This document shows, one piece after another, positions 4,954 to 14,014 of a DNA stretch of 64,000 bases. Every line of letters begins with the position of its first letter. Within the stretch, counting starts at the first letter, position 1. The notes beneath the pieces are model-generated. The model saw only the letters and a program-made list of their open reading frames with translations, did not search any database and was not told the origin of the DNA. The stretch covers positions 1-64,000 of the IMG/VR virus record IMGVR_UViG_3300043603_000010. One strand, given 5' to 3'. Both the position numbers and the translations under genes were made by a program. Source of the stretch: a virus. Its lineage: Duplodnaviria > Caudoviricetes.

Positions 4954-5128
4954 CCGGCGACGTCCGCAGGTCGGTGTACCTGCGCAACCGCTCCGTACTC
5001 ACCCCGCGCCAGCGCCGTCGGATCCGGCACAAAGTCAACCGCTCGCTGCGCCCGCTATCCTGAGCGCACCTCGCCACGTCACCGCACGACCGCGTCCGGA
5101 AACCGCGCACCGTGCGGGCGAGCGGGCA

Positions 5129-5165
5129 CAGAACCCCTGCCTCCCCGTCATCGGCAGGGGTTCTG
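5129..5165 (+). terminator. Hairpin between lysin region and terminase
   Basis: CAGAACCCCTGCC...GGCAGGGGTTCTG 13-bp stem. Confidence 0.55.
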
Positions 5166-5189
5166 CTGCGTCCGGGGCAGACTGATCGT

Positions 5190-6548
5190 GTGAGCCAGGA
5201 CGCCCAGAAGGTTGCAGCCAGGGCCGCAGCCCTGCTGGGTGAGCGGATTGCTCTGCTGCGCCAGCCCGGATGGCAGCCGCTGCCGCACCAGACGCCTCCC
5301 CCTGGCAGCTGGTACGGCTGGTTGCTGCTGGCCGGGCGAGGCGCGGGCAAGACGGACGCCTGCGCGCACTACGTGGCGGAGCACGTGAAGGGGCCGCCGT
5401 GCATTCCCGGGCCGGTCCCGCACTGGATCGGGATCATTGCTCCGACCCTCGGGGACGCGGCTACGTCCTGCGTCAACGGCCCGTCCGGGATCAAGGCGCA
5501 CAGTCCTGATGCCCGGATGGTGAACCGGCCCGGCGGCCTGTCCGTGGTCTGGCCCAACGGCAGCGAGGCGAAGCTGTTCGGAGCCAACACGGAGGAGGAC
5601 ACGGAACGCCTGAGGTCCGGTGGCAACCGGTGCCTCGCGTGGCTGGAGGAGCTGGCCGCGTGGCGCTGGCAGGACGCGGCGTGGGCGCAGATGCGGTTCG
5701 GCCTGCGCCTCGGGGTGCGCCCGCACTGGATCGGGTCGACCACTCCGAAGCCGCGCCCGCTGATCAAGCGCCTGGCCAAGCACGAGATCAACGACGTCAC
5801 CCTGTCCCGGGCGTCGATGTACGACAACCCGCACCTGCCGCTGCACATCCGCCAGGCGCTGGAAGACGAGTACTCCGGCACGCAGCTGGGCCGCCAGGAG
5901 CTGATGGCGGAGCTGATCGATCAGGACGAGAACGCGCTGTGGACCCATGAGCGGATCGACTTGGCCCGGTGGCAGTACGCGGACCTGCCGGACCTGAAGC
6001 GGATCACTGTCGGCGTGGACCCGTCCGGCGGAGCCGGGGAGCAGGGCATCGTCGTGTCCGGCCGGGCGCAGCTGCCGCGCAACGACACCGACCGGCGGCT
6101 GCTGCACCACGGGTTCGTGCTGGCGGACCGGACCGTCCACCTGTCCCCGGACCAGTGGGCGCGGCGCGCTGTGCAGGCGGCTGTCGACTACGAGGCCAAC
6201 GACATCTGCGTAGAGATCAACTACGGCGGAGACATGGCGGTGTCGACCATCCGGTCCGCTGCCGACGACATGGGTGTGCCGATCCCGATCCGGATCGTCC
6301 GGGCTACCCGGGGCAAGGCGATCCGCGCGGAACCGGTGGCCGCGCTGACGGAGCAGCTCCGCTGGCACCATGCCGGGCAGTTCCCCGAGCTGGAGGACCA
6401 GCTCTGCACCTGGCACCCCGATCTGGACTGGAGCCCGGACCGGCTGGACGGGATGGTCTGGACCGCGTGGCACAACAAGGTCGTCCACCTGCCCCCGGGA
6501 CTGGCGGGCAAGGGGCTGGGCCGGGTGCCGTCGCGGCAGATCGGGTGA
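5190..6548 (+). CDS. terL: Terminase large subunit
   Basis: Walker A LAGRGAGKT, Walker B WLEELAAW, motif STTP, nuclease VGVDPSG, SPDRLD; likely GTG start at 5190. Confidence 0.93.
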   Translation: MSQDAQKVAARAAALLGERIALLRQPGWQPLPHQTPPPGSWYGWLLLAGRGAGKTDACAHYVAEHVKGPPCIPGPVPHWIGIIAPTLGDAATSCVNGPSGIKAHSPDARMVNRPGGLSVVWPNGSEAKLFGANTEEDTERLRSGGNRCLAWLEELAAWRWQDAAWAQMRFGLRLGVRPHWIGSTTPKPRPLIKRLAKHEINDVTLSRASMYDNPHLPLHIRQALEDEYSGTQLGRQELMAELIDQDENALWTHERIDLARWQYADLPDLKRITVGVDPSGGAGEQGIVVSGRAQLPRNDTDRRLLHHGFVLADRTVHLSPDQWARRAVQAAVDYEANDICVEINYGGDMAVSTIRSAADDMGVPIPIRIVRATRGKAIRAEPVAALTEQLRWHHAGQFPELEDQLCTWHPDLDWSPDRLDGMVWTAWHNKVVHLPPGLAGKGLGRVPSRQIG

Positions 6549-7865: not shown

Positions 7866-8176
7866 GGGCCCGCTGGCCGCGCGCCCTGAACTGCGTGACC
7901 GCCACGGCGTCCATCGCCGCGCTGGCGCTGCTGGCCGCGTGCTCATCCGGGTCCGCGTCCTCCCCGCTCGAACCGGATCCGGCGGGCACCGCCGCGTGCA
8001 GTACGGCTCTGCACCAGCTGTACGACACGTACTCCGCCACCGGGACCACGCCTCCGCTGACGTCCGCTCCGCCGCAGTGCAGGGGCGTTAGCACGGCCGA
8101 CCTGAACACGATCGTGGACCAGATCATCGCGAGCGCCTTCGCCAGTGCCTTCCCGGAAGGGAGCGCGACACCGTGA
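7862..8176 (+). CDS. Putative lipoprotein
   Basis: Signal peptide with LLAAC lipobox. Confidence 0.65.
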   Translation: MRARWPRALNCVTATASIAALALLAACSSGSASSPLEPDPAGTAACSTALHQLYDTYSATGTTPPLTSAPPQCRGVSTADLNTIVDQIIASAFASAFPEGSATP

Positions 8177-8706
8177 CGTACGAACCGCAGCCCGGGGACA
8201 TCGGGCTCACTCAGATCCACGGAGGCGTGGGACTGGGGATCAGGATCGGCCAGTGGCTCAACGGTGACGGGTTCGCCGACTACGAACACGCGTTCGTCGT
8301 GGTCGGTGAGGTGGACGGGTATGACGGTCCGCAGCTGATCGAGGCGGAGCCCGGTGGCGCCCGGCAGATGCCGCTGGTGACGTACGACGCGGACCGGGTG
8401 GCCTATCTGCACTGCCCGGAATCCGACCGGGACGCGGTAGCAGCCGCTGCGCTGGAGCTGATCGGCACGCCGTACTCCTTCCTGGACTACGGATCGCTCG
8501 CGCTGCACCGGCTGCACATCCCGGCTCCGCTGCTCCGGCGGTACATCAGGTCCTCGGGGCACGAGATCTGCTCCCAGCTGGCGGACCTAGCAGCCTGCCG
8601 GGGCGGCTGGCACCTGTATACGGATGGGAGATGGCCTCAGGATGTCACACCAGGTGACTTGAGACTCCTCGTCAGGAAGCAGAATGCAGACTTGCTCAGT
8701 GACTGA
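8173..8706 (+). CDS. Permuted papain-like NlpC/P60 (YiiX/YaeF-like) protein
   Basis: PGDIGL...YEHAFVV...IEAEPGG...IGTPYSF...ICSQL (His before Cys). Confidence 0.8.
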   Translation: MTYEPQPGDIGLTQIHGGVGLGIRIGQWLNGDGFADYEHAFVVVGEVDGYDGPQLIEAEPGGARQMPLVTYDADRVAYLHCPESDRDAVAAAALELIGTPYSFLDYGSLALHRLHIPAPLLRRYIRSSGHEICSQLADLAACRGGWHLYTDGRWPQDVTPGDLRLLVRKQNADLLSD

Positions 8707-9265
8707 ATGTGCGAAACCAGCCGTGGCCAGGGGCTGGTGCGGGATGCATTACCAGCGGTGGTCCCGGAACCGAGACCCCCTTGTGACGCTGCCCCGGTCG
8801 GGGAACCGGACACTCCGGGTAATTCCTGAGATTCGTACCTGCCGCGTGTGTTCTTTTGTAGGGCCCCGGGACAAGTTCCGTCCGAAGAACAATATTTGCA
8901 AGCCTTGCTCAGATGCATACAAGGAACAGTGGAAGGCTCGGAACCCGGACAAAGTGGCTGCTTCTAAAGCGAGGCAGGCACCTGTCAGGCAGACGTACGA
9001 ACTACGTCGGCGAGCCTTGCGCGCGGGAGTTGATCCAGATGAATACGTCCGGATCCTAGCAAGCCACTCAGGTCTCTGCGATATTTGCGGTAGGGGTCCC
9101 GAAGCGGGAGGAAAACGTCGGTTGGCCATTGATCATGACCATTCGACAGGGCTGTTCAGGGGACTCCTTTGCGGCCCCTGCAACACTGCTCTGGGGTCTT
9201 TCGGAGATGATGCGGAACGGATGAAAGCGGCGATTGCTTATCTGGAGCAGGAGCGGTCCGCGTGA
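8684..9265 (+). CDS. Endonuclease VII-type HNH (homing-like) endonuclease
   Basis: CDICG...LAIDHDHSTGLFRGLLCGPCNTALG; N-terminal CSVTEC...GWCGMHYQRW; visibly lower GC. Confidence 0.88.
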   Translation: MQTCSVTECAKPAVARGWCGMHYQRWSRNRDPLVTLPRSGNRTLRVIPEIRTCRVCSFVGPRDKFRPKNNICKPCSDAYKEQWKARNPDKVAASKARQAPVRQTYELRRRALRAGVDPDEYVRILASHSGLCDICGRGPEAGGKRRLAIDHDHSTGLFRGLLCGPCNTALGSFGDDAERMKAAIAYLEQERSA

Positions 9266-9569: not shown

Positions 9570-9826
9570 CCGTACCGCAGAACGGGTCCAGGCCCGTGCA
9601 GTCCCCGGTGGACCCGCTGAACCCGTTCATCGGCGAGTACCCGGCGCACCTGGTGAACGACGTGTACAACGGGCCGATCGGCCAGCGACTGATCATGACC
9701 ATGCGGGTGGGCAACGCCACAGTGACGGCGATGCTGGCCAAGGACGACGCGATCAAGTGGCGGGACCAGATCACCGAGTACATCGGCAAGATGAACGGCC
9801 TGATCCTGCCGCCGTCCGGTGGCTGA
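9566..9826 (+). CDS. Hypothetical protein
   Basis: GTG start overlapping previous stop; GC3-biased frame. Confidence 0.6.
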   Translation: MTVPQNGSRPVQSPVDPLNPFIGEYPAHLVNDVYNGPIGQRLIMTMRVGNATVTAMLAKDDAIKWRDQITEYIGKMNGLILPPSGG

Positions 9827-9849: not shown

Positions 9850-9878
9850 TTGACATCCGGGCCGACCGGTCCTAGCGT
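9850..9878 (+). promoter_or_regulatory. Sigma70/HrdB-type promoter for the Y-RNA/Ro60 cassette
   Basis: TTGACA (9850-55), 17 nt, TAGCGT (9873-78); predicted +1 near G9886, the first base of Y RNA unit 1. Confidence 0.8.
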
Positions 9879-9885
9879 GGACCCC

Positions 9886-10025
9886 GTCTAGGTGCGCAGG
9901 TGCTCGGTACTTCACCCAAACTGCGGGTCGCGGGTTCGAATCCCGCTGGCGGTCGGAAGACCGATGTAGCTCAGTGGATAGAGCAGCAGTCTCCAAGAGC
10001 CGATCACCGACTTTGATCTCCGGAC
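9886..10025 (+). ncRNA. YrlA-like Y RNA unit 1 (circularly permuted tRNA-like domain)
   Basis: T-arm GCGGG-TTCGAAT-CCCGC precedes an acceptor-like stem closed by GGAA, then D-arm GCTC-AGTGGATA-GAGC; ends pair into a long stem with GGTGCG / TTGATCT. Confidence 0.85.
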
Positions 10026-10035
10026 ACACAAGCTT

Positions 10036-10176
10036 CCCGCAGGTGCGACAGAAGATCCTTACTTCCCTCTGGAGGACGTGGTTGCGGGTTCGAGTCCCGC
10101 CAGCTGGCCCAACACGTCAGCTGTAGCTCAACTGGCAGAGCGCGTACGTCAGGATCATCGCCTTGACCTCTGCGGG
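10036..10176 (+). ncRNA. YrlA-like Y RNA unit 2
   Basis: T-arm GCGGG-TTCGAGT-CCCGC, stem CAGCTGG/TCAGCTG, D-arm GCTC-AACTGGCA-GAGC; closing CCCGCAG/CTGCGGG and GATCCT/AGGATC. Confidence 0.85.
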
Positions 10177-10194
10177 TCACAACTGAATACGCAC

Positions 10195-10267
10195 CTCCCG
10201 GTGCGAAGGCAAATCGGGTACGTCTCGGTAAAAGAAACCCCCGGACCGCCGTTACTGATCTCGGGAG
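10195..10267 (+). ncRNA. Short Y-RNA-like unit 3 (no tRNA-like domain)
   Basis: CTCCCG/CGGGAG closing stem with the same GGTGCG and ACTGATCT motifs. Confidence 0.65.
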
Positions 10268-10281
10268 GCCACAGCATCGGT

Positions 10282-10383
10282 ACCTGGTGCGCAGTGGACG
10301 GTTCCTTCGGTTCGAATCCGGAGCACTCTCCCCGAAAGGGTCGGGGTGTTCGGCGTAAACCGTCCGCGCTACTGATCTCGGGT
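10282..10383 (+). ncRNA. Y-RNA-like unit 4 (T-loop present, D-arm absent)
   Basis: GGTGCG 5' motif, GGACGGTT/AACCGTCC stem, GG-TTCGAAT-CC, CCC-GAAA-GGG, ACTGATCT 3' motif. Confidence 0.7.
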
Positions 10384-10424
10384 CCACTGCTCAGCCTCCC
10401 TCCGACCGAGTGGAGGCTTTTCCC

Positions 10425-12044
10425 TTGTCCAAGTTCAACAGCCCGACGGCGCGCCCGACGGCGCGCCAGCCCGTGACCACGACCGGGCCCGCCACCACGT
10501 ACGAGGGCGGAGCGGGGTTCGCCCGCGATACCCGGTCCGACCTGGTTCTGCTCGCCGTGACCAACATGGTCGGTGAGCAGACCTTCTACGAGAGCGGCAG
10601 CGACCGGGACACCAGGTACGCCGGTCTGGTCCGCGCCTGCGCGGTCAGCGACCCGCAGTGGACCCTGGACTTCCTGCGCTGGCTGCGCGGTGAGGCCAAC
10701 ATGCGCTCCGCCTCCCTGGTCGGCGCGGCGGAGTTCGTCAAGGGCCGCCTGGAGGCCGTGGCCGCCGGGGACCTGGTGCCCGACATCAGGGCGGAGAACA
10801 CCCAGGTCGGGGGCTGGAACCGCAAGGCGGTGGACGCGGTGCTCCAGCGGGCCGACGAGCCCGGCGAGTTCCTCGCCTACTGGACGTCGCACTACGGCCG
10901 CAGGCTGCCCCAGCCGGTCAAGCGCGGTGTGGCGGACGCGGTCCGGCGACTGTACACGGAGCGGTCCCTGCTGAAGTACGACACGGCCAGTCACGGCTAC
11001 CGCTTCGCCGACGTGATCGACCTGGTGCACCCGGGTCCGGCGTCCGAAAAGCCGTACCAGGGCGACCTGTTCGTCCACGCCCTGGACCGACGTCACGGCC
11101 ACGCCGACAGCATCCCGGAGCGCCTGCTCAAGATCCGAGCCAACGCGTCGCTGCGCAGCTCGGACAACCTGTCGGCATGGTTGAACCCGCAGACACTGGA
11201 CGCCGCAGGGATGACCTGGGAGGACGCCCTGTCCGCCGTCGGGTCCAAGGTCGACAAGGCCGCGCTGTGGTCCGCCATGATCCCGTCCATGGGGATCATG
11301 GCGCTGATCCGCAACCTGCGGAACTTCGATGAGTCCGGAGTCACGGACGCGGTGGCCACCAAGGTCTGCGCCCGGCTGATGGACCCTGCGGAGATCGCCC
11401 GGTCCCGCCAGTTCCCGTTCCGGTTCCTGTCGGCGTACCGCGCCGCTCCGTCGCTGCGCTGGGGCTACGCCCTGGACACCGCGCTCACCCTGGCGACGTC
11501 CAACATCCCGGCGCTGCCCGGCCGCACCCTGGTCATGGTCGACACGTCCGCGTCGATGCAGGGCGCCGTGTCCGCCAAGAGCACGATCCGGCACGTGGAC
11601 GTCGGCGCGCTGTTCGGCGTGGCGCTGGCGGCCCGGGGCAGCCAGGTGGACCTGGTGGGGTTCGCCGACGGGGTGTTCCCCCACCCGCTGCGGAAGGGTG
11701 GTTCGGTGCTCGCGCAGACCGAGGCGTTCACCCGGCGGGTCGGGGAGGTCGGCCACGGCACCAACACAGTCGGCGCTCTCCGGGCCGCGTACAGCGGCCA
11801 CGACCGGGTGGTGATCCTGCACGACGGGCAGTACGGCAGCTTCGCTCTCAACTGGCCGCAGCTGTCCACCGTGCTGGCGCCGGGCGTCCCGCTGTTCAGC
11901 ATCGACACGACCGGCTACCAGGCCGCGCCGGTGGATGCCTCGCAGCCGAACCGGTACGAGATCGGCGGGTTCTCGGACAAGCTGTTCACGATGGTGAGTC
12001 TGCTCAGCCGGGGACGGGACGCCGGTTGGCCGTGGGAGGGGTAG
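10425..12044 (+). CDS. rsr: Ro60/TROVE-domain RNA-binding protein with C-terminal vWA domain
   Basis: SKFN...TTYEGGAGF...LAVTNMVGEQTFYE...EANMRS...MGIMALIRNLRN...QFPFRFLSAY...LVMVDTSASM (MIDAS); TTG start after GGAGG. Confidence 0.93.
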   Translation: MSKFNSPTARPTARQPVTTTGPATTYEGGAGFARDTRSDLVLLAVTNMVGEQTFYESGSDRDTRYAGLVRACAVSDPQWTLDFLRWLRGEANMRSASLVGAAEFVKGRLEAVAAGDLVPDIRAENTQVGGWNRKAVDAVLQRADEPGEFLAYWTSHYGRRLPQPVKRGVADAVRRLYTERSLLKYDTASHGYRFADVIDLVHPGPASEKPYQGDLFVHALDRRHGHADSIPERLLKIRANASLRSSDNLSAWLNPQTLDAAGMTWEDALSAVGSKVDKAALWSAMIPSMGIMALIRNLRNFDESGVTDAVATKVCARLMDPAEIARSRQFPFRFLSAYRAAPSLRWGYALDTALTLATSNIPALPGRTLVMVDTSASMQGAVSAKSTIRHVDVGALFGVALAARGSQVDLVGFADGVFPHPLRKGGSVLAQTEAFTRRVGEVGHGTNTVGALRAAYSGHDRVVILHDGQYGSFALNWPQLSTVLAPGVPLFSIDTTGYQAAPVDASQPNRYEIGGFSDKLFTMVSLLSRGRDAGWPWEG

Positions 12045-12069
12045 TCTGACCCCTGCTGAGTGAGACACG

Positions 12070-12101
12070 AGCCCCGGCCGTTCTGCAAAGGGCCGGGGCT
12101 T
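12070..12101 (+). terminator. Terminator after Ro60
   Basis: AGCCCCGGCC...GGCCGGGGCT stem followed by TCT. Confidence 0.7.
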
Positions 12102-12172
12102 CTCGCTGTCCGGAAGGTGCTGGGGAAGATCCGCGCTACGCTGCCCCCATCGACCGGACGGAGGGCCGGAGT

Positions 12173-14014
12173 ATGCCGTGGTACAGCGCATTCGGCTTCG
12201 GGCCCCGCGCTCCGGCCCGCAAGGAACTGCCGGACATGGCCGCGCTGGTGGCCGCTGTCGCCCCGGTGCGTGCTCCGCAGGGCCAGTTCATGCGGCACCC
12301 GGACCGCTGGCAGAACCAGGTCTGGGGCTATTTCGACACGCTGGGGGAGTACAACTACGGCGTCCAGTGGCTGGCGTCGATGCTCTCCCGGGTCCGGCTG
12401 CGCGCGGCGAAGATGACGCCCGGCTCCGACGAACCGGAGATCATCGATGTGGGCCCGGCTGCCGAGATCATGGCCAAGCTGGGCCGGGGCGTCGGCGGCC
12501 AGAGCGAACTCATGCGCCGGATGTCCGTCCAGCTGTCCGTCCCCGGCGAGTGCTACCTGATCGGTGAGGAGCGCTTCGGGGAGGAGATCTGGTCGGTCCG
12601 GTCCATCGACGAAGTGCGGGCCAGCGCGAGCGGGGCCACGCTGGAGAACGGCGGCGGCTGGGAGGTCACCGACGAATCCAACCCGAACCTGGGGCAGATC
12701 TGGCGTCCGCTTGAGGCGGACTCGATCCCGGTCCGGATCTGGCGTCCGCACGACCGCTGGTACCACCTGGCGGACAGCCCGTCGCGGTCCGCTCTGGAGA
12801 TCCTGCGTGAGCTGGAGCTGGTCAACCGGCACATCCTCGCCCAGTACCTCAGCCGCCTGGCGTCGGCCGGAGTGCTGCTGCTCCCGGAAGAGGTCAGCTT
12901 CCCGGCGAAGGAGGAGTACGCCGACAGCGCGGACCCCTTCGTCGAAGAGTGGATCGACATCGCCGCACAGGCGATCAAGAACCCCGGGGATGCGTCGTCG
13001 ATCATCCCGATCATCCTCAGGCTGCCCTCCGACTACATTGCCGCCGTCAAGCACCTGGACTTCACCCTCAAGATCGATGATCACATCATCGACAAGCGCA
13101 ACAGCGTGCTGAAGCGGCTTGCGACCAAGCTGGACCTGCCGTCCTCGGTGCTGTTGGGCCTGGAGGACATGAACCACTGGAACGCCTTCGCCGACCAGGA
13201 GTCCGGTACCCGTGAGCACGTCGCTCCGGCAGCGGAGACGATCTGCGACGCGCTGACGCACGGCTACCTGAAGCCCCGGCTGGAGGCCAGCGGAGAGGAT
13301 CCTGCCGGTTGGGTCGCCTGGTACGACTTGTCCGAGCTGGAGATCAAGCCGGACCGCTCGCAGAACGCCGAAGCTGCGTACGACCGGATGGAGCTGTCCG
13401 GAGAGGCGTACCGCCGGGAGAACGGGTTCAACGAGACCGACGCGCCCACCGACGAAGAACTGAAGACCATCCTGCTGAAGAACCTGGTGCGGACCGCGCA
13501 CGGCGCGGCGCCGGGTGCGGTGGACATCCTGGTCGGGACCGAACTGCTCACTCCGGCCACCCAGGGCCCCGGTGCCTCGGACAGTCAGGTGGGTATCGTC
13601 CCGGAGCCCGGCCAGCACCTCCCGGAAGGAGAGCAGGCGCCGGTCGCCCCCGCCGCGCCTCCGGACAAGACCGCTCCGGCCGGGCCTCCGCAGAAGGCAG
13701 AGGCCAGCGCAGAGGACGTGCTGCGCAGGCACCAGCAGGCGACCACGCAGCACGTCCTGGTGTTCCGCGCCGGAGAGCAGTGGGACCTGCGGCATCCGGA
13801 CGTCTGCGGGGACCACGCTTACGCATGCCCGTTCACCGAAGCGGTGGCCGGGGGCGGACTGGCTGTCCGGCCGGGGACACCCGGGTCCTACATGTGCCGT
13901 CTGGACGCGTTCGGACGGCTGCGCATCGACGGTCCCGCGCTGTACACCGACTTGTCCGGCATGGCGTCCACCCTGCTCACTCCGGCGGGTGCGAACGGGA
14001 GGAGCCGTGGCTGA
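12173..14014 (+). CDS. Portal protein
   Basis: Actinophage portal-like WQNQVWGYFDTLGEYNYGVQWLASMLSRVRL...RLASAGVLLLP...NHWNA; position before head genes. Confidence 0.82.
   Translation: MPWYSAFGFGPRAPARKELPDMAALVAAVAPVRAPQGQFMRHPDRWQNQVWGYFDTLGEYNYGVQWLASMLSRVRLRAAKMTPGSDEPEIIDVGPAAEIMAKLGRGVGGQSELMRRMSVQLSVPGECYLIGEERFGEEIWSVRSIDEVRASASGATLENGGGWEVTDESNPNLGQIWRPLEADSIPVRIWRPHDRWYHLADSPSRSALEILRELELVNRHILAQYLSRLASAGVLLLPEEVSFPAKEEYADSADPFVEEWIDIAAQAIKNPGDASSIIPIILRLPSDYIAAVKHLDFTLKIDDHIIDKRNSVLKRLATKLDLPSSVLLGLEDMNHWNAFADQESGTREHVAPAAETICDALTHGYLKPRLEASGEDPAGWVAWYDLSELEIKPDRSQNAEAAYDRMELSGEAYRRENGFNETDAPTDEELKTILLKNLVRTAHGAAPGAVDILVGTELLTPATQGPGASDSQVGIVPEPGQHLPEGEQAPVAPAAPPDKTAPAGPPQKAEASAEDVLRRHQQATTQHVLVFRAGEQWDLRHPDVCGDHAYACPFTEAVAGGGLAVRPGTPGSYMCRLDAFGRLRIDGPALYTDLSGMASTLLTPAGANGRSRG

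What the first reader, a model, noticed from the sequence alone, without database searches (positions are those of the whole stretch)
9850..12101. Self-contained phage cassette: promoter, four tandem Y-RNA-like ncRNAs, Ro60/TROVE, terminator
Seen in sequence: a near-consensus TTGACA-17-TAGCGT promoter whose predicted +1 (about 9886) is the first base of unit 1. Four tandem units follow (9886-10025, 10036-10176, 10195-10267, 10282-10383). Each begins with GGTGCG, ends with (T/C)TGA(T/C)CT, has pairing termini and is followed by a short CAC-containing linker. Units 1 and 2 carry a circularly permuted tRNA domain (T-arm, loop-closed acceptor stem, D-arm) plus a shared TACTTC. Unit 4 keeps only the T-loop, and unit 3 has no tRNA domain. 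Established: Ro60 orthologues bind Y RNAs, YrlA-type Y RNAs are permuted tRNA mimics encoded beside Ro, and a Ro/YrlA pair has been described in a mycobacteriophage. Inference: a graded set of four structurally different Y RNAs cut from one transcript and inserted between terminase and portal is unusual. It could give several Ro RNPs, for example tethering PNPase, gating the Ro cavity, or acting as decoys for anticodon nucleases.
Basis: partly seen in the sequence, partly recalled or inferred. Interest (0 to 1): 0.92.

Follow-up and report, generated by a model that had tools for sequence, protein, structure and literature searches.

The report
Phage Ro60 gene with four Y RNAs
A soil phage of Streptomyces-like bacteria carries a copy of its hosts' Ro60 RNA-surveillance gene preceded by four small partner "Y RNA" genes, two of them tRNA mimics. 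The feature is real, but it is a phage copy of an arrangement that is standard in actinomycetes and their phages, not a new kind of system.

Summary
Between a host-type promoter (9850-9878) and a TROVE/vWA Ro60 gene (10425-12044) lie four tandem RNA units, each closed by its own terminal stem and each carrying the same handle (5' GGUGCG, 3' YUGAYCU).

- **Units 1 and 2** are YrlA-type permuted tRNA mimics, with V region, T arm, closed acceptor stem and D arm.
- **Unit 3** is a plain hairpin.
- **Unit 4** keeps only a T arm.

A covariance model built from homologous units gives 92% paired cells against 35-45% in slid controls. 27 of 33 pairs show compensatory changes. The tRNA Levitt pair 15:48 covaries in 30 of 30 units.

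The "unusual" part of the reading does not hold. The same units occur in arrays of 2-6 beside Ro in every related phage locus with flanking DNA. They occur in arrays of 1-4 directly upstream of chromosomal rsr in all 47 actinomycete genomes searched. On a Ro tree the phage protein nests among Streptomycetaceae Rsr, so this is a captured host-type rsr/Y-RNA operon.

Processing into separate RNAs, Ro binding and function are inferred, not shown. Verdict: a new member of a known kind (Chen 2014; Thermus phage phiLo 2025). Earlier notes of this scan report tandem Y-like arrays beside Ro60-like genes in other phages.

The parts
9850..9878 (+). Host sigma-70/HrdB-type promoter candidate: TTGACA, 17-nt spacer, TAGCGT. 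The predicted start near G9886 coincides with the first paired base of unit 1.
   Evidence: Sequence. The pattern occurs 4 times in the window against 0.07 expected. Similar TTGAC(A/C)-16/18-TAG(T/G)(G/T)T boxes precede the first unit in L016 and L014. The start site is inferred.
9885..10025 (+). Unit 1: YrlA-type Y RNA. It has a terminal stem, the handle (GGUGCG / UUGAUCU), a second stem, GUACUUC, a V region, a T arm, a roughly 7-bp acceptor-like hairpin, a D arm and an anticodon-stem mimic. Levitt pair G15:C48.
   Evidence: R1 105.7 bits; Rfam YrlA 30.2 bits over model positions 23-85; covariation; Levitt pair.
10036..10176 (+). Unit 2: a second YrlA-type Y RNA with an 8-bp acceptor-like hairpin. 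Its loop starts C-CCA straight after the 7-nt 3' strand. Levitt pair A15:U48.
   Evidence: R1 120 bits; Rfam YrlA 39.1 bits. The ARAGORN 'tRNA-Gln' call at 10036-10111 is a composite of the unit's 5' part and its T arm, not a tRNA.
10194..10268 (+). Unit 3: short hairpin-type Y RNA with the same terminal stem and handle, an interrupted second stem and a roughly 21-nt loop. It has no tRNA-like part. The motif reads UACGUC here.
   Evidence: R1 29.8 bits through the terminal stem and handle. Class alignment A2: 97% paired against 25-56% in slid controls. Close relatives read U at 10222, which restores UACUUC.
10281..10384 (+). Unit 4: T-arm-only Y RNA. It has the terminal stem, handle, a long second stem, UUCCUUC running into a 5-bp T stem with a UUCGAAU loop, and then one extended hairpin. 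It has no D arm.
   Evidence: R1 41.4 bits; fold. Units of the same build are found in eight places: L005 (two units), L006, L007, L008, L014 and L025. They sit next to Ro in L005, L006 and L007.
10393..10424 (+). GC hairpin (AGCCUCC / GGAGGCU) followed by UUUU. It is terminator-like, and its 3' arm contains the GGAGG Shine-Dalgarno sequence (10412-10416) of the Ro gene.
   Evidence: -16.1 kcal/mol, z -2.5. A hairpin in the same position, with a different sequence, lies between the last unit and the Ro start in most relatives. Its function is inferred.
10425..12044 (+). Ro60/Rsr orthologue, 539 aa, TTG start. It has a TROVE HEAT-repeat ring and a vWA domain with the MIDAS motif DTSAS.
   Evidence: Pfam TROVE 61.4 bits (cut-off 23) and phrog_850. 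PDB phmmer hit to phiLo Ro60 at 1.4e-24. AF2 pLDDT 83, Foldseek TM 0.72 to 1yvp, plus 2nvo and 9kop. Homologues align from residue 1, and L021 also starts with TTG. D373, S375 and S377 are invariant.
12060..12107 (+). Strong GC hairpin that ends the cassette, 65 nt before the portal gene start.
   Evidence: Fold -37 kcal/mol, z -3.8. The portal gene is at 12173-14014.

Best explanation
This is a phage-borne copy of the actinomycete rsr (Ro60) operon with its Y RNA genes.

Inferred: a host-type promoter starts transcription at about 9886. The first roughly 500 nt fold into four independently closed units, separated by 6-14-nt single-stranded linkers. Host endonucleases, and for the tRNA-like units possibly tRNA-processing enzymes, cut them into four RNAs of about 140, 140, 75 and 105 nt.

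Shown by covariation and conservation: all four share one handle next to the terminal stem, a bulged helix of GGU(G)CG with UGA(UC)U. It matches 6 of 7 bases of the vertebrate Ro-binding sequence GGUCCGA.

Inferred: each RNA binds the outer face of the phage Ro60 ring through this handle. The variable modules (two full tRNA mimics, a pyrimidine-rich hairpin loop, a T-arm module) would then link Ro to different host partners, most likely PNPase and tRNA-recognising enzymes. This follows what is known for Deinococcus and Salmonella, and in vitro for phage phiLo.

Inferred: the hairpin at 10393-10418 stops most transcripts and hides the Ro ribosome-binding site, so Y RNAs outnumber Ro protein.

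Supported by a tree: the cassette was taken from a Streptomycetaceae host lineage.
For: - Ro60 identity.
- Four units, and no others in the genome.
- Fold of the YrlA-type units: hand-drawn structure on 12 units gives 92.9% paired against 34-47% slid, with 21 of 33 pairs changed on both sides. On 30 units, 18 of which were not used to build the model, it gives 92% against 35-45%, with 27 of 33 pairs.
- Tertiary Levitt pair: G15:C48 in 19 units and A15:U48 in 11, 30 of 30, with A14 in all 30 and U8 in 28 of 30. Chen 2014 used this same feature to argue for tRNA mimicry.
- Short class: terminal stem and handle 97% paired against 25-56%.
- The YUAC(UUC) motif is present in 54 of 57 units. It corresponds to the conserved YUAY of YrlA.
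- Linkage to Ro: units flank Ro in every phage locus with flanking DNA and in 47 of 47 bacterial rsr loci searched.
- Host origin: Ro is 50-62% identical to chromosomal Rsr. One such locus has housekeeping neighbours. The window's Ro sits in a 4-phage clade inside a 100%-supported clade with Embleya and Yinghuangia.
- Precedents: M. smegmatis YrlA and YrlB come from one precursor upstream of rsr; Deinococcus Yrn2, tRNA-Asp and Yrn1 are polycistronic. PhiLo Ro60 binds two upstream Yrl RNAs and PNPase.
- Weak hint of co-transcription: a 190-nt contig from a soil RNA library, about 94% identical, spans the unit 2/3 and 3/4 junctions of a relative. DNA in that library is not excluded.
Against: - There is no direct RNA evidence for this phage: no 5' or 3' ends, no discrete species, no Ro binding.
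- Neither YrlA-type unit reaches Rfam's gathering score (39.1 and 30.2 against 69). No unit in the 17 relatives' loci searched reaches it either.
- The published bacterial motif GNCGAAN0-1G is matched only loosely: the handle is U-G-CG-(A/C)-A-G.
- Single-sequence folding energies are not exceptional for units 1, 3 and 4 (z 0.06, -0.5, -1.6).
- The alignment behind one search was fitted to the model.
- The phage has no RtcB or RNA ligase, so a repair role has no local support.
- The tree is a quick search with a midpoint root, so the direction of transfer is the parsimonious reading, not a proven one.
Confidence: 0.82

Rival explanations
1. The 500-nt region is not a set of separate RNAs. It is one structured leader that acts in cis on Ro expression, by attenuation and RBS masking, possibly sensed by Ro itself.
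For: There is no terminator until the hairpin at 10393-10418, which overlaps the Shine-Dalgarno sequence. That hairpin is conserved in position. An RNA-library contig bridges unit junctions.
Against: Each unit closes on itself with its own covarying terminal stem. Unit number and order vary freely, from 1 to 6. In Arthrobacter phage Atuin the array lies downstream of Ro. In L016 true tRNAs are interleaved with the units. Homologous M. smegmatis RNAs are processed and bound by Rsr.
Confidence: 0.06
2. The tRNA-like units act without Ro. They would be decoys or sponges for host tRNA-targeting nucleases or tRNA-modifying enzymes, or processing punctuation like the tRNA-like elements elsewhere in this genome. 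Ro would be only a neighbour or a stabiliser.
For: Units 1 and 2 keep the full set of tRNA tertiary signatures. The phage carries many tRNA and tRNA-like elements (earlier notes). Unit 2 encodes C-CCA after a 7-bp acceptor-like stem.
Against: Units 3 and 4, which lack most or all of the tRNA-like parts, keep the same handle. The handle resembles the Ro-binding sequence of vertebrate Y RNAs. The units are found beside Ro in all 70-odd loci examined and nowhere else in this genome.
Confidence: 0.07
3. The cassette is a recently captured host fragment with no role in the phage (a passenger).
For: Nearest neighbours on the tree include bacterial Rsr. The flanks are not shared with most other Ro-carrying phages.
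Against: The Ro ORF is intact, with invariant residues kept. The window groups with three other phage contigs in a clade with 95% support, and L005, L006 and L007 also carry arrays. Stems are kept through compensatory changes. The cassette has its own promoter and terminator. Phage lineages have taken up Ro at least 9 times, which argues for selection.
Confidence: 0.05

Closest known systems
Mycobacterium smegmatis rsr locus with YrlA and YrlB (Chen et al. 2014, PMC4201824)
   Same: - Actinobacterial Ro60 with several Y RNAs encoded directly upstream on the same strand and, in M. smegmatis, cut from one precursor.
- One RNA is a permuted tRNA mimic (T, acceptor-like and D arms, a YUAY motif, a 7-bp acceptor stem cleaved by RNase P).
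- Another RNA carries only a possible T arm.
- The complements of the paper's published Northern probes contain CACUUC (YrlA) and GACUUC followed by GGUUCGA (YrlB). This is the same motif order as in units 1, 2 and 4 here.
   Different: - Four units instead of two, including two full YrlA paralogues with different Levitt pairs and acceptor stems.
- Carried by a phage.
- A hairpin masks the Ro ribosome-binding site.
- No experimental data.
Thermus phage phiLo Ro60 with Yrl1 and Yrl2 (NAR 2025, PMC12135203; PDB 9KOP, 9L5Y)
   Same: - A phage-encoded Ro60 with Y-RNA-like genes in the upstream non-coding region.
- It is the best sequence match among solved structures (1.4e-24).
- In vitro it binds both RNAs and forms complexes with host PNPase.
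   Different: - About 25% protein identity.
- PhiLo has two RNAs, found through a CGAA motif, and no tRNA-like domain is reported in the text I read.
- Here there are four units in three structural classes, with a clear host origin.
Rfam YrlA (RF02553) and Salmonella YrlA/YrlB in the rsr-yrlBA-rtcBA operon
   Same: The tRNA-like core has the same order and consensus: variable region, T arm, closed acceptor stem, GU, D arm, closing stem (alignment).
   Different: - Scores are 39 and 30 bits against a gathering score of 69.
- Only model positions 23-86 of 114 align.
- The handle and spacer differ.
- There is no RtcB or RtcA in the phage.
Deinococcus radiodurans Yrn1/Yrn2 and metazoan Y RNAs
   Same: - Terminal stem formed by the 5' and 3' ends, with a bulged Ro-binding helix. 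GGUGCGA here against GGUCCGA in vertebrates, with the 3' strand UGAUC against UGACU.
- Several Y RNAs per genome.
- A polycistronic precursor with a tRNA in Deinococcus.
   Different: - Different effector modules.
- The pairing drawn here has a 2-nt bulge in the 3' strand of the helix, which I did not find described.
- Binding is untested.

Membership tests
Bacterial Y RNA, YrlA type (Chen 2014; Rfam RF02553) | Encoded within about 2 kb of a Ro60 orthologue, on the same strand | tested here: met
   Units lie at 9885-10384 and Ro at 10425-12044, both on the + strand.
Bacterial Y RNA, YrlA type (Chen 2014; Rfam RF02553) | 5' Ro-recognition motif GNCGAAN0-1G (related to vertebrate GGUCCGA) | tested here: inconclusive
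   All four units have GGUGCG followed by CAG, ACAG or AAGG. This matches 6 of 7 bases of GGUCCGA. The strict bacterial pattern is not matched, because the base two before the C is U, not G. Binding was not tested.
Bacterial Y RNA, YrlA type (Chen 2014; Rfam RF02553) | 5' and 3' ends pair to form a long stem that carries the Ro site | tested here: met
   Helices 1 and 3 of the model (terminal stem and second stem) are 95% and 92.5% paired, each with 7 of 8 pairs changed on both sides. The short class agrees.
Bacterial Y RNA, YrlA type (Chen 2014; Rfam RF02553) | tRNA-like domain in the order V, T arm, acceptor-like stem-loop, D arm, with conserved YUAY before V | tested here: met
   Met for units 1 and 2. 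Unit 4 has only the T arm and unit 3 has none, so those two are Y RNAs of other types, not YrlA.
Bacterial Y RNA, YrlA type (Chen 2014; Rfam RF02553) | tRNA tertiary pairs possible, with the Levitt 15:48 pair kept through compensatory change | tested here: met
   30 of 30 units have G:C or A:U. Unit 1 has G:C and unit 2 has A:U. A14 is invariant and U8 is kept in 28 of 30.
Bacterial Y RNA, YrlA type (Chen 2014; Rfam RF02553) | Score at or above Rfam's gathering threshold (69 bits) | tested here: not met
   39.1 and 30.2 bits, as local matches to the core only. There was no YrlA hit at the gathering score in 17 related loci.
Bacterial Y RNA, YrlA type (Chen 2014; Rfam RF02553) | Stable discrete RNA bound by Ro60 in vivo | not testable with these tools
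   The only RNA evidence is one contig of a relative from an RNA library that bridges unit junctions.
Ro60 / Rsr (TROVE + vWA) | TROVE domain above Pfam's threshold | tested here: met
   PF05731, 61.4 bits against a cut-off of 23; phrog_850 over the full length.
Ro60 / Rsr (TROVE + vWA) | HEAT-repeat ring plus C-terminal vWA domain with a MIDAS DxSxS motif | tested here: met
   AF2 model with pLDDT 83. Full-length Foldseek matches to Ro60 1yvp and 9nfa (TM 0.72), Rsr 2nvo and phiLo 9kop. D373, S375 and S377 are invariant in 15 homologues.
Canonical tRNA gene (for units 1 and 2) | Cloverleaf in the normal order with open acceptor ends and an anticodon arm | tested here: not met
   Rfam tRNA scores 26 bits (cut-off 29), and only by joining the D arm of unit 1 to the T arm of unit 2 across 75 nt. 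The ARAGORN call at 10036-10111 is a composite. The arm order is permuted and the acceptor stem is closed by a loop.

The most novel reading that the evidence does not exclude
Actinomycete phages repeatedly capture the host rsr/Y-RNA operon and then enlarge the Y RNA set: 4 units here and up to 6 in relatives, against mostly 1-3 in host chromosomes. The extra units would act as an adaptor library that redirects the Ro ring, phage or host, and host PNPase or tRNA enzymes toward several RNA targets during infection. Alternatively, the tRNA-mimic modules soak up host tRNA-directed defence nucleases. The T-arm-only build (unit 4) would then be a third functional class of Y RNA.
Probability: 0.2. 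Interest if true: 0.72.

Novelty: new member of a known kind. Interest (0 to 1): 0.42.

Why it matters
For this window it settles the annotation. About 500 bases that gene callers leave empty, or fill with a false tRNA, encode four Ro-partner RNAs.

More broadly, the covariance model built here shows that multi-unit Y RNA arrays are the rule beside Ro60 in actinomycetes and their phages. The current Rfam YrlA model misses them at its threshold. Several cultured phages carry them unannotated (GiJojo, Alone3, BRock, Quantum, VanLee, Neville, Atuin), and in some they are called tRNAs or tiny ORFs.

These phages grow on laboratory Streptomyces, Gordonia and Arthrobacter strains. The open question of what a phage gains from Ro60 and Y RNAs could therefore be tested directly with deletions.

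Tried and rejected
- Megablast of the locus against 50,697 phage records: no match. Relatives were found only at the protein level.
- Rfam at gathering thresholds: nothing at the locus.
- The generic promoter scan found none. It requires an E. coli-like -10 box, and TAGCGT fits the actinomycete TAnnnT form, so I tested the pattern directly.
- Single-sequence folding z-scores are unremarkable for units 1, 3 and 4, so the case rests on comparative evidence.
- Forcing the handle pairs as hard constraints in ViennaRNA dropped the isolated pairs. The handle pairing therefore rests on conservation and on analogy with vertebrate Y RNA, not on energy.
- A local hairpin after UACUUC that looks like an anticodon arm was considered as an alternative to the anticodon-stem mimic. 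It corresponds to the published V stem-loop, and both pairings show compensatory changes.
- Coding alternative: the three ORFs overlapping the array have no Pfam or PHROG match.
- RtcB and RNA ligase families are absent from the phage genome.
- Sequencing runs: only soil metagenomes hold the DNA. One RNA library has a short contig of a relative. Uncovered parts say nothing.
- The supplement of Chen 2014 and the 2020 Annual Review were not available. I therefore could not check whether Streptomyces-type arrays are already listed there.
Full report
**1. What is there**

The window is the first 64 kb of a 90.6-kb IMG/VR virus record rated complete. It was assembled from a soil metagenome.

On the + strand the order is:
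- large terminase, 5112-6548
- several small genes, including an endonuclease VII, 8684-9265
- an unknown 167-aa ORF ending at 9826
- the region in question
- portal gene, 12173-14014

The region opens with TTGACA (9850-9855), a 17-nt spacer and TAGCGT (9873-9878). This pattern (TTGACA, 16-18 nt, TAnnnT) occurs four times in the window against 0.07 expected.

From about 9885 four units follow. The motifs GGTGCG and YTGAYCT occur 58 and 14 times on this strand of the window. Four of each alternate strictly within 490 nt.

**2. The protein**

The ORF is best started at TTG 10425:
- Homologues align from its first residue.
- One relative (L021) also uses TTG.
- GGAGG lies 8 nt upstream.

It is a Ro60/Rsr orthologue on four lines of evidence:
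- Pfam TROVE above threshold, plus vWA.
- phrog_850 over the full length.
- The best PDB sequence match is the Ro60 of Thermus phage phiLo.
- An AlphaFold model (pLDDT 83) matches Xenopus and human Ro60, Deinococcus Rsr and phiLo Ro60 over the full length, with TM about 0.72 to the Xenopus and human structures.

The MIDAS residues D373, S375 and S377 are invariant in 15 homologues.

**3. The RNAs**

Rfam gives only sub-threshold local YrlA matches to the tRNA-like cores of units 1 and 2. I therefore collected Ro loci from IMG/VR and found the same unit plan upstream of Ro in many of them. The plan is:
- a 5-8-bp terminal stem of free sequence
- GGUGCG
- a second stem
- YUACUUC
- a variable module
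- the return strand of the second stem
- YUGAYCU
- the return strand of the terminal stem

Twelve YrlA-type units were aligned. On a hand-drawn structure 92.9% of cells pair, against 34-47% when partners are slid. 21 of 33 pairs change on both sides.

The covariance model R1 hits all four window units and nothing else in the genome. An alignment of 30 units, 18 of which were not used to build the model, gives 92% paired against 35-45%, with 27 of 33 pairs compensated. That alignment is fitted to the model, which favours it. The slid controls and the model-independent result argue that the signal is real.

The tertiary Levitt pair covaries in 30 of 30 units (19 G15:C48, 11 A15:U48). A14 is invariant and U8 is kept in 28 of 30. 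Within this window unit 1 has G:C and unit 2 has A:U. Chen et al. 2014 used exactly this feature to argue that YrlA mimics the tRNA L-shape, and their conserved YUAY before the V loop corresponds to the YUAC of the motif here.

The short class, which includes unit 3, keeps the terminal stem and handle (97% paired against 25-56%).

Unit 4 belongs to a recurrent T-arm-only build seen in eight units. These form a gradient of YrlA-like units that have lost the D arm.

Unit 3 reads UACGUC where 54 of 57 units have the ACUUC-type motif. Contigs of close relatives read U at 10222, which restores UACUUC.

**4. The handle**

By analogy with vertebrate Y RNA (5' GGUCCGA pairing with 3' UUGACU around a bulged C), the invariant bases here can pair as follows:
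- G-C and G-U at the base of the terminal stem
- then U-A
- a bulged G
- then C-G and G-U
- two unpaired bases (UC) on the 3' strand

All these bases are invariant in the close clade, so covariation cannot test the pairing. In more distant units the two strands change together: GAAGCG with UGGUACUC, and GAUGCG with UUUUCUA. This is the best candidate for the Ro-binding site, but it is an inference.

**5. How common it is**

R1 finds 2-6 full-length units beside Ro in every related phage locus that has flanking DNA. This includes cultured phages in which only the protein is annotated: GiJojo, Alone3, Quantum, VanLee, BRock, Neville and Atuin. Atuin has four units downstream of Ro.

The Ro protein is 50-62% identical to Rsr of more than 555 actinomycete genome stretches. 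R1 finds 1-4 units directly upstream of rsr in all 47 bacterial loci searched. About a dozen of these loci have three units and Planotetraspora has four. These are lower bounds, because the speed filters miss weak short units.

One Streptomyces locus has ordinary chromosomal neighbours (siderophore-interacting protein, 5'-3' exonuclease, short-chain dehydrogenase), so it is not a prophage.

On a quick maximum-likelihood tree of 97 Ro proteins the phage rows need at least nine separate placements among bacterial clades that otherwise follow taxonomy. The window's Ro groups with three other phage contigs (support 95), inside a clade (support 100) with Embleya, Yinghuangia and Streptodolium.

The flanks of the cassette are not shared with other Ro-carrying phages, except for a portal gene in L004.

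The simplest reading is repeated capture of the host operon by phages, here from a Streptomycetaceae lineage. The root and the direction of transfer are not proven.

**6. Expression logic**

A GC hairpin with a short U run (10393-10424) lies between unit 4 and the Ro start, and its 3' arm contains the Shine-Dalgarno sequence. A hairpin with a different sequence sits in the same place in most relatives. In the close clade it again overlaps a purine-rich stretch 5-9 nt before the start codon. In more distant phages it is a classical terminator followed by a separate ribosome-binding site.

I infer a leaky terminator and RBS mask that keeps Y RNAs in excess over Ro.

A 190-nt contig from a soil RNA library, about 94% identical, spans the unit 2/3 and 3/4 junctions. 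This fits a polycistronic precursor but does not prove transcription.

**7. Function**

Published work shows three things:
- Y RNA tethers Rsr to PNPase in Deinococcus and Salmonella.
- M. smegmatis YrlA and YrlB are cut from one precursor, and YrlA is cleaved by RNase P.
- PhiLo Ro60 binds two upstream Yrl RNAs and forms complexes with host PNPase in vitro.

I therefore expect four Ro RNPs that differ in their effector module. The phage has no RtcB or RNA ligase, so a self-contained repair system is unlikely. The decoy idea remains possible but has no specific support.

**8. Verdict**

It is a phage member of a known system, and its multi-unit array is normal for its host group. The useful by-products are a working model for an actinomycete and actinophage Y RNA family that Rfam's YrlA model does not reach, and a list of cultured phages in which the biology can be tested. 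Other notes of this scan report similar tandem arrays beside Ro60-like genes in unrelated phages. I did not test those.

Noticed in passing
L002:3762-3911 (GiJojo), L003:3767-3915 (Alone3), L023:2201-2341 (VanLee): Annotated tRNA-Arg(cct), tRNA-Ser(gct) and tRNA-Arg(tct) genes lie inside full-length R1 units. The GiJojo and VanLee ones are not recovered by Rfam's tRNA model at its threshold (Alone3 was not among the loci searched with Rfam). They are probably mis-called parts of Y RNAs, like ARAGORN's 'tRNA-Gln' at window 10036-10111.
   Followed up: partly
L026:2004-2377 (Gordonia phage Neville): Two R1 units overlap three tiny annotated hypothetical ORFs (gp88-gp90, 43-50 aa) just upstream of Ro. 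These ORFs are probably not genes.
   Followed up: no
L025:4246-4831 (Arthrobacter phage Atuin): Four tandem units lie downstream of Ro rather than upstream, inside a tRNA gene cluster. A fifth weak hit lies upstream (1944-2016).
   Followed up: no
L016:1660-2954: Six units are interleaved with three true tRNA genes (1953-2026, 2375-2449, 2582-2656). This recalls the Deinococcus Yrn2 / tRNA-Asp / Yrn1 precursor.
   Followed up: no
window 10101-10123: In unit 2 the acceptor-like 3' strand (7 nt) is followed directly by C-CCA in the loop. RNase P cleavage and 3' trimming could therefore leave a tRNA-like CCA end. Other units mostly have tetraloops here.
   Followed up: no
window 8173-8706; L002:7876-8349, L003:7770-8234, L024:5639-6103: The 177-aa protein two genes upstream of the cassette (weak Peptidase_C92 / phrog_1128 match) has 41% identical homologues, annotated 'peptidase', 1.5-2.3 kb downstream of Ro in the BE-cluster phages GiJojo, Alone3 and BRock. 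This may be a loosely linked neighbour.
   Followed up: no
window 10393-10427 and the same position in L005-L008, L011, L013, L020: The hairpin whose 3' arm holds the Ro Shine-Dalgarno sequence is conserved in position but not in sequence across the close clade.
   Followed up: partly
window 10222: Unit 3 has G where three metagenome contigs of close relatives (two DNA, one from an RNA library) have U. The window's UACGUC is therefore a single-base departure from the family's UACUUC.
   Followed up: partly
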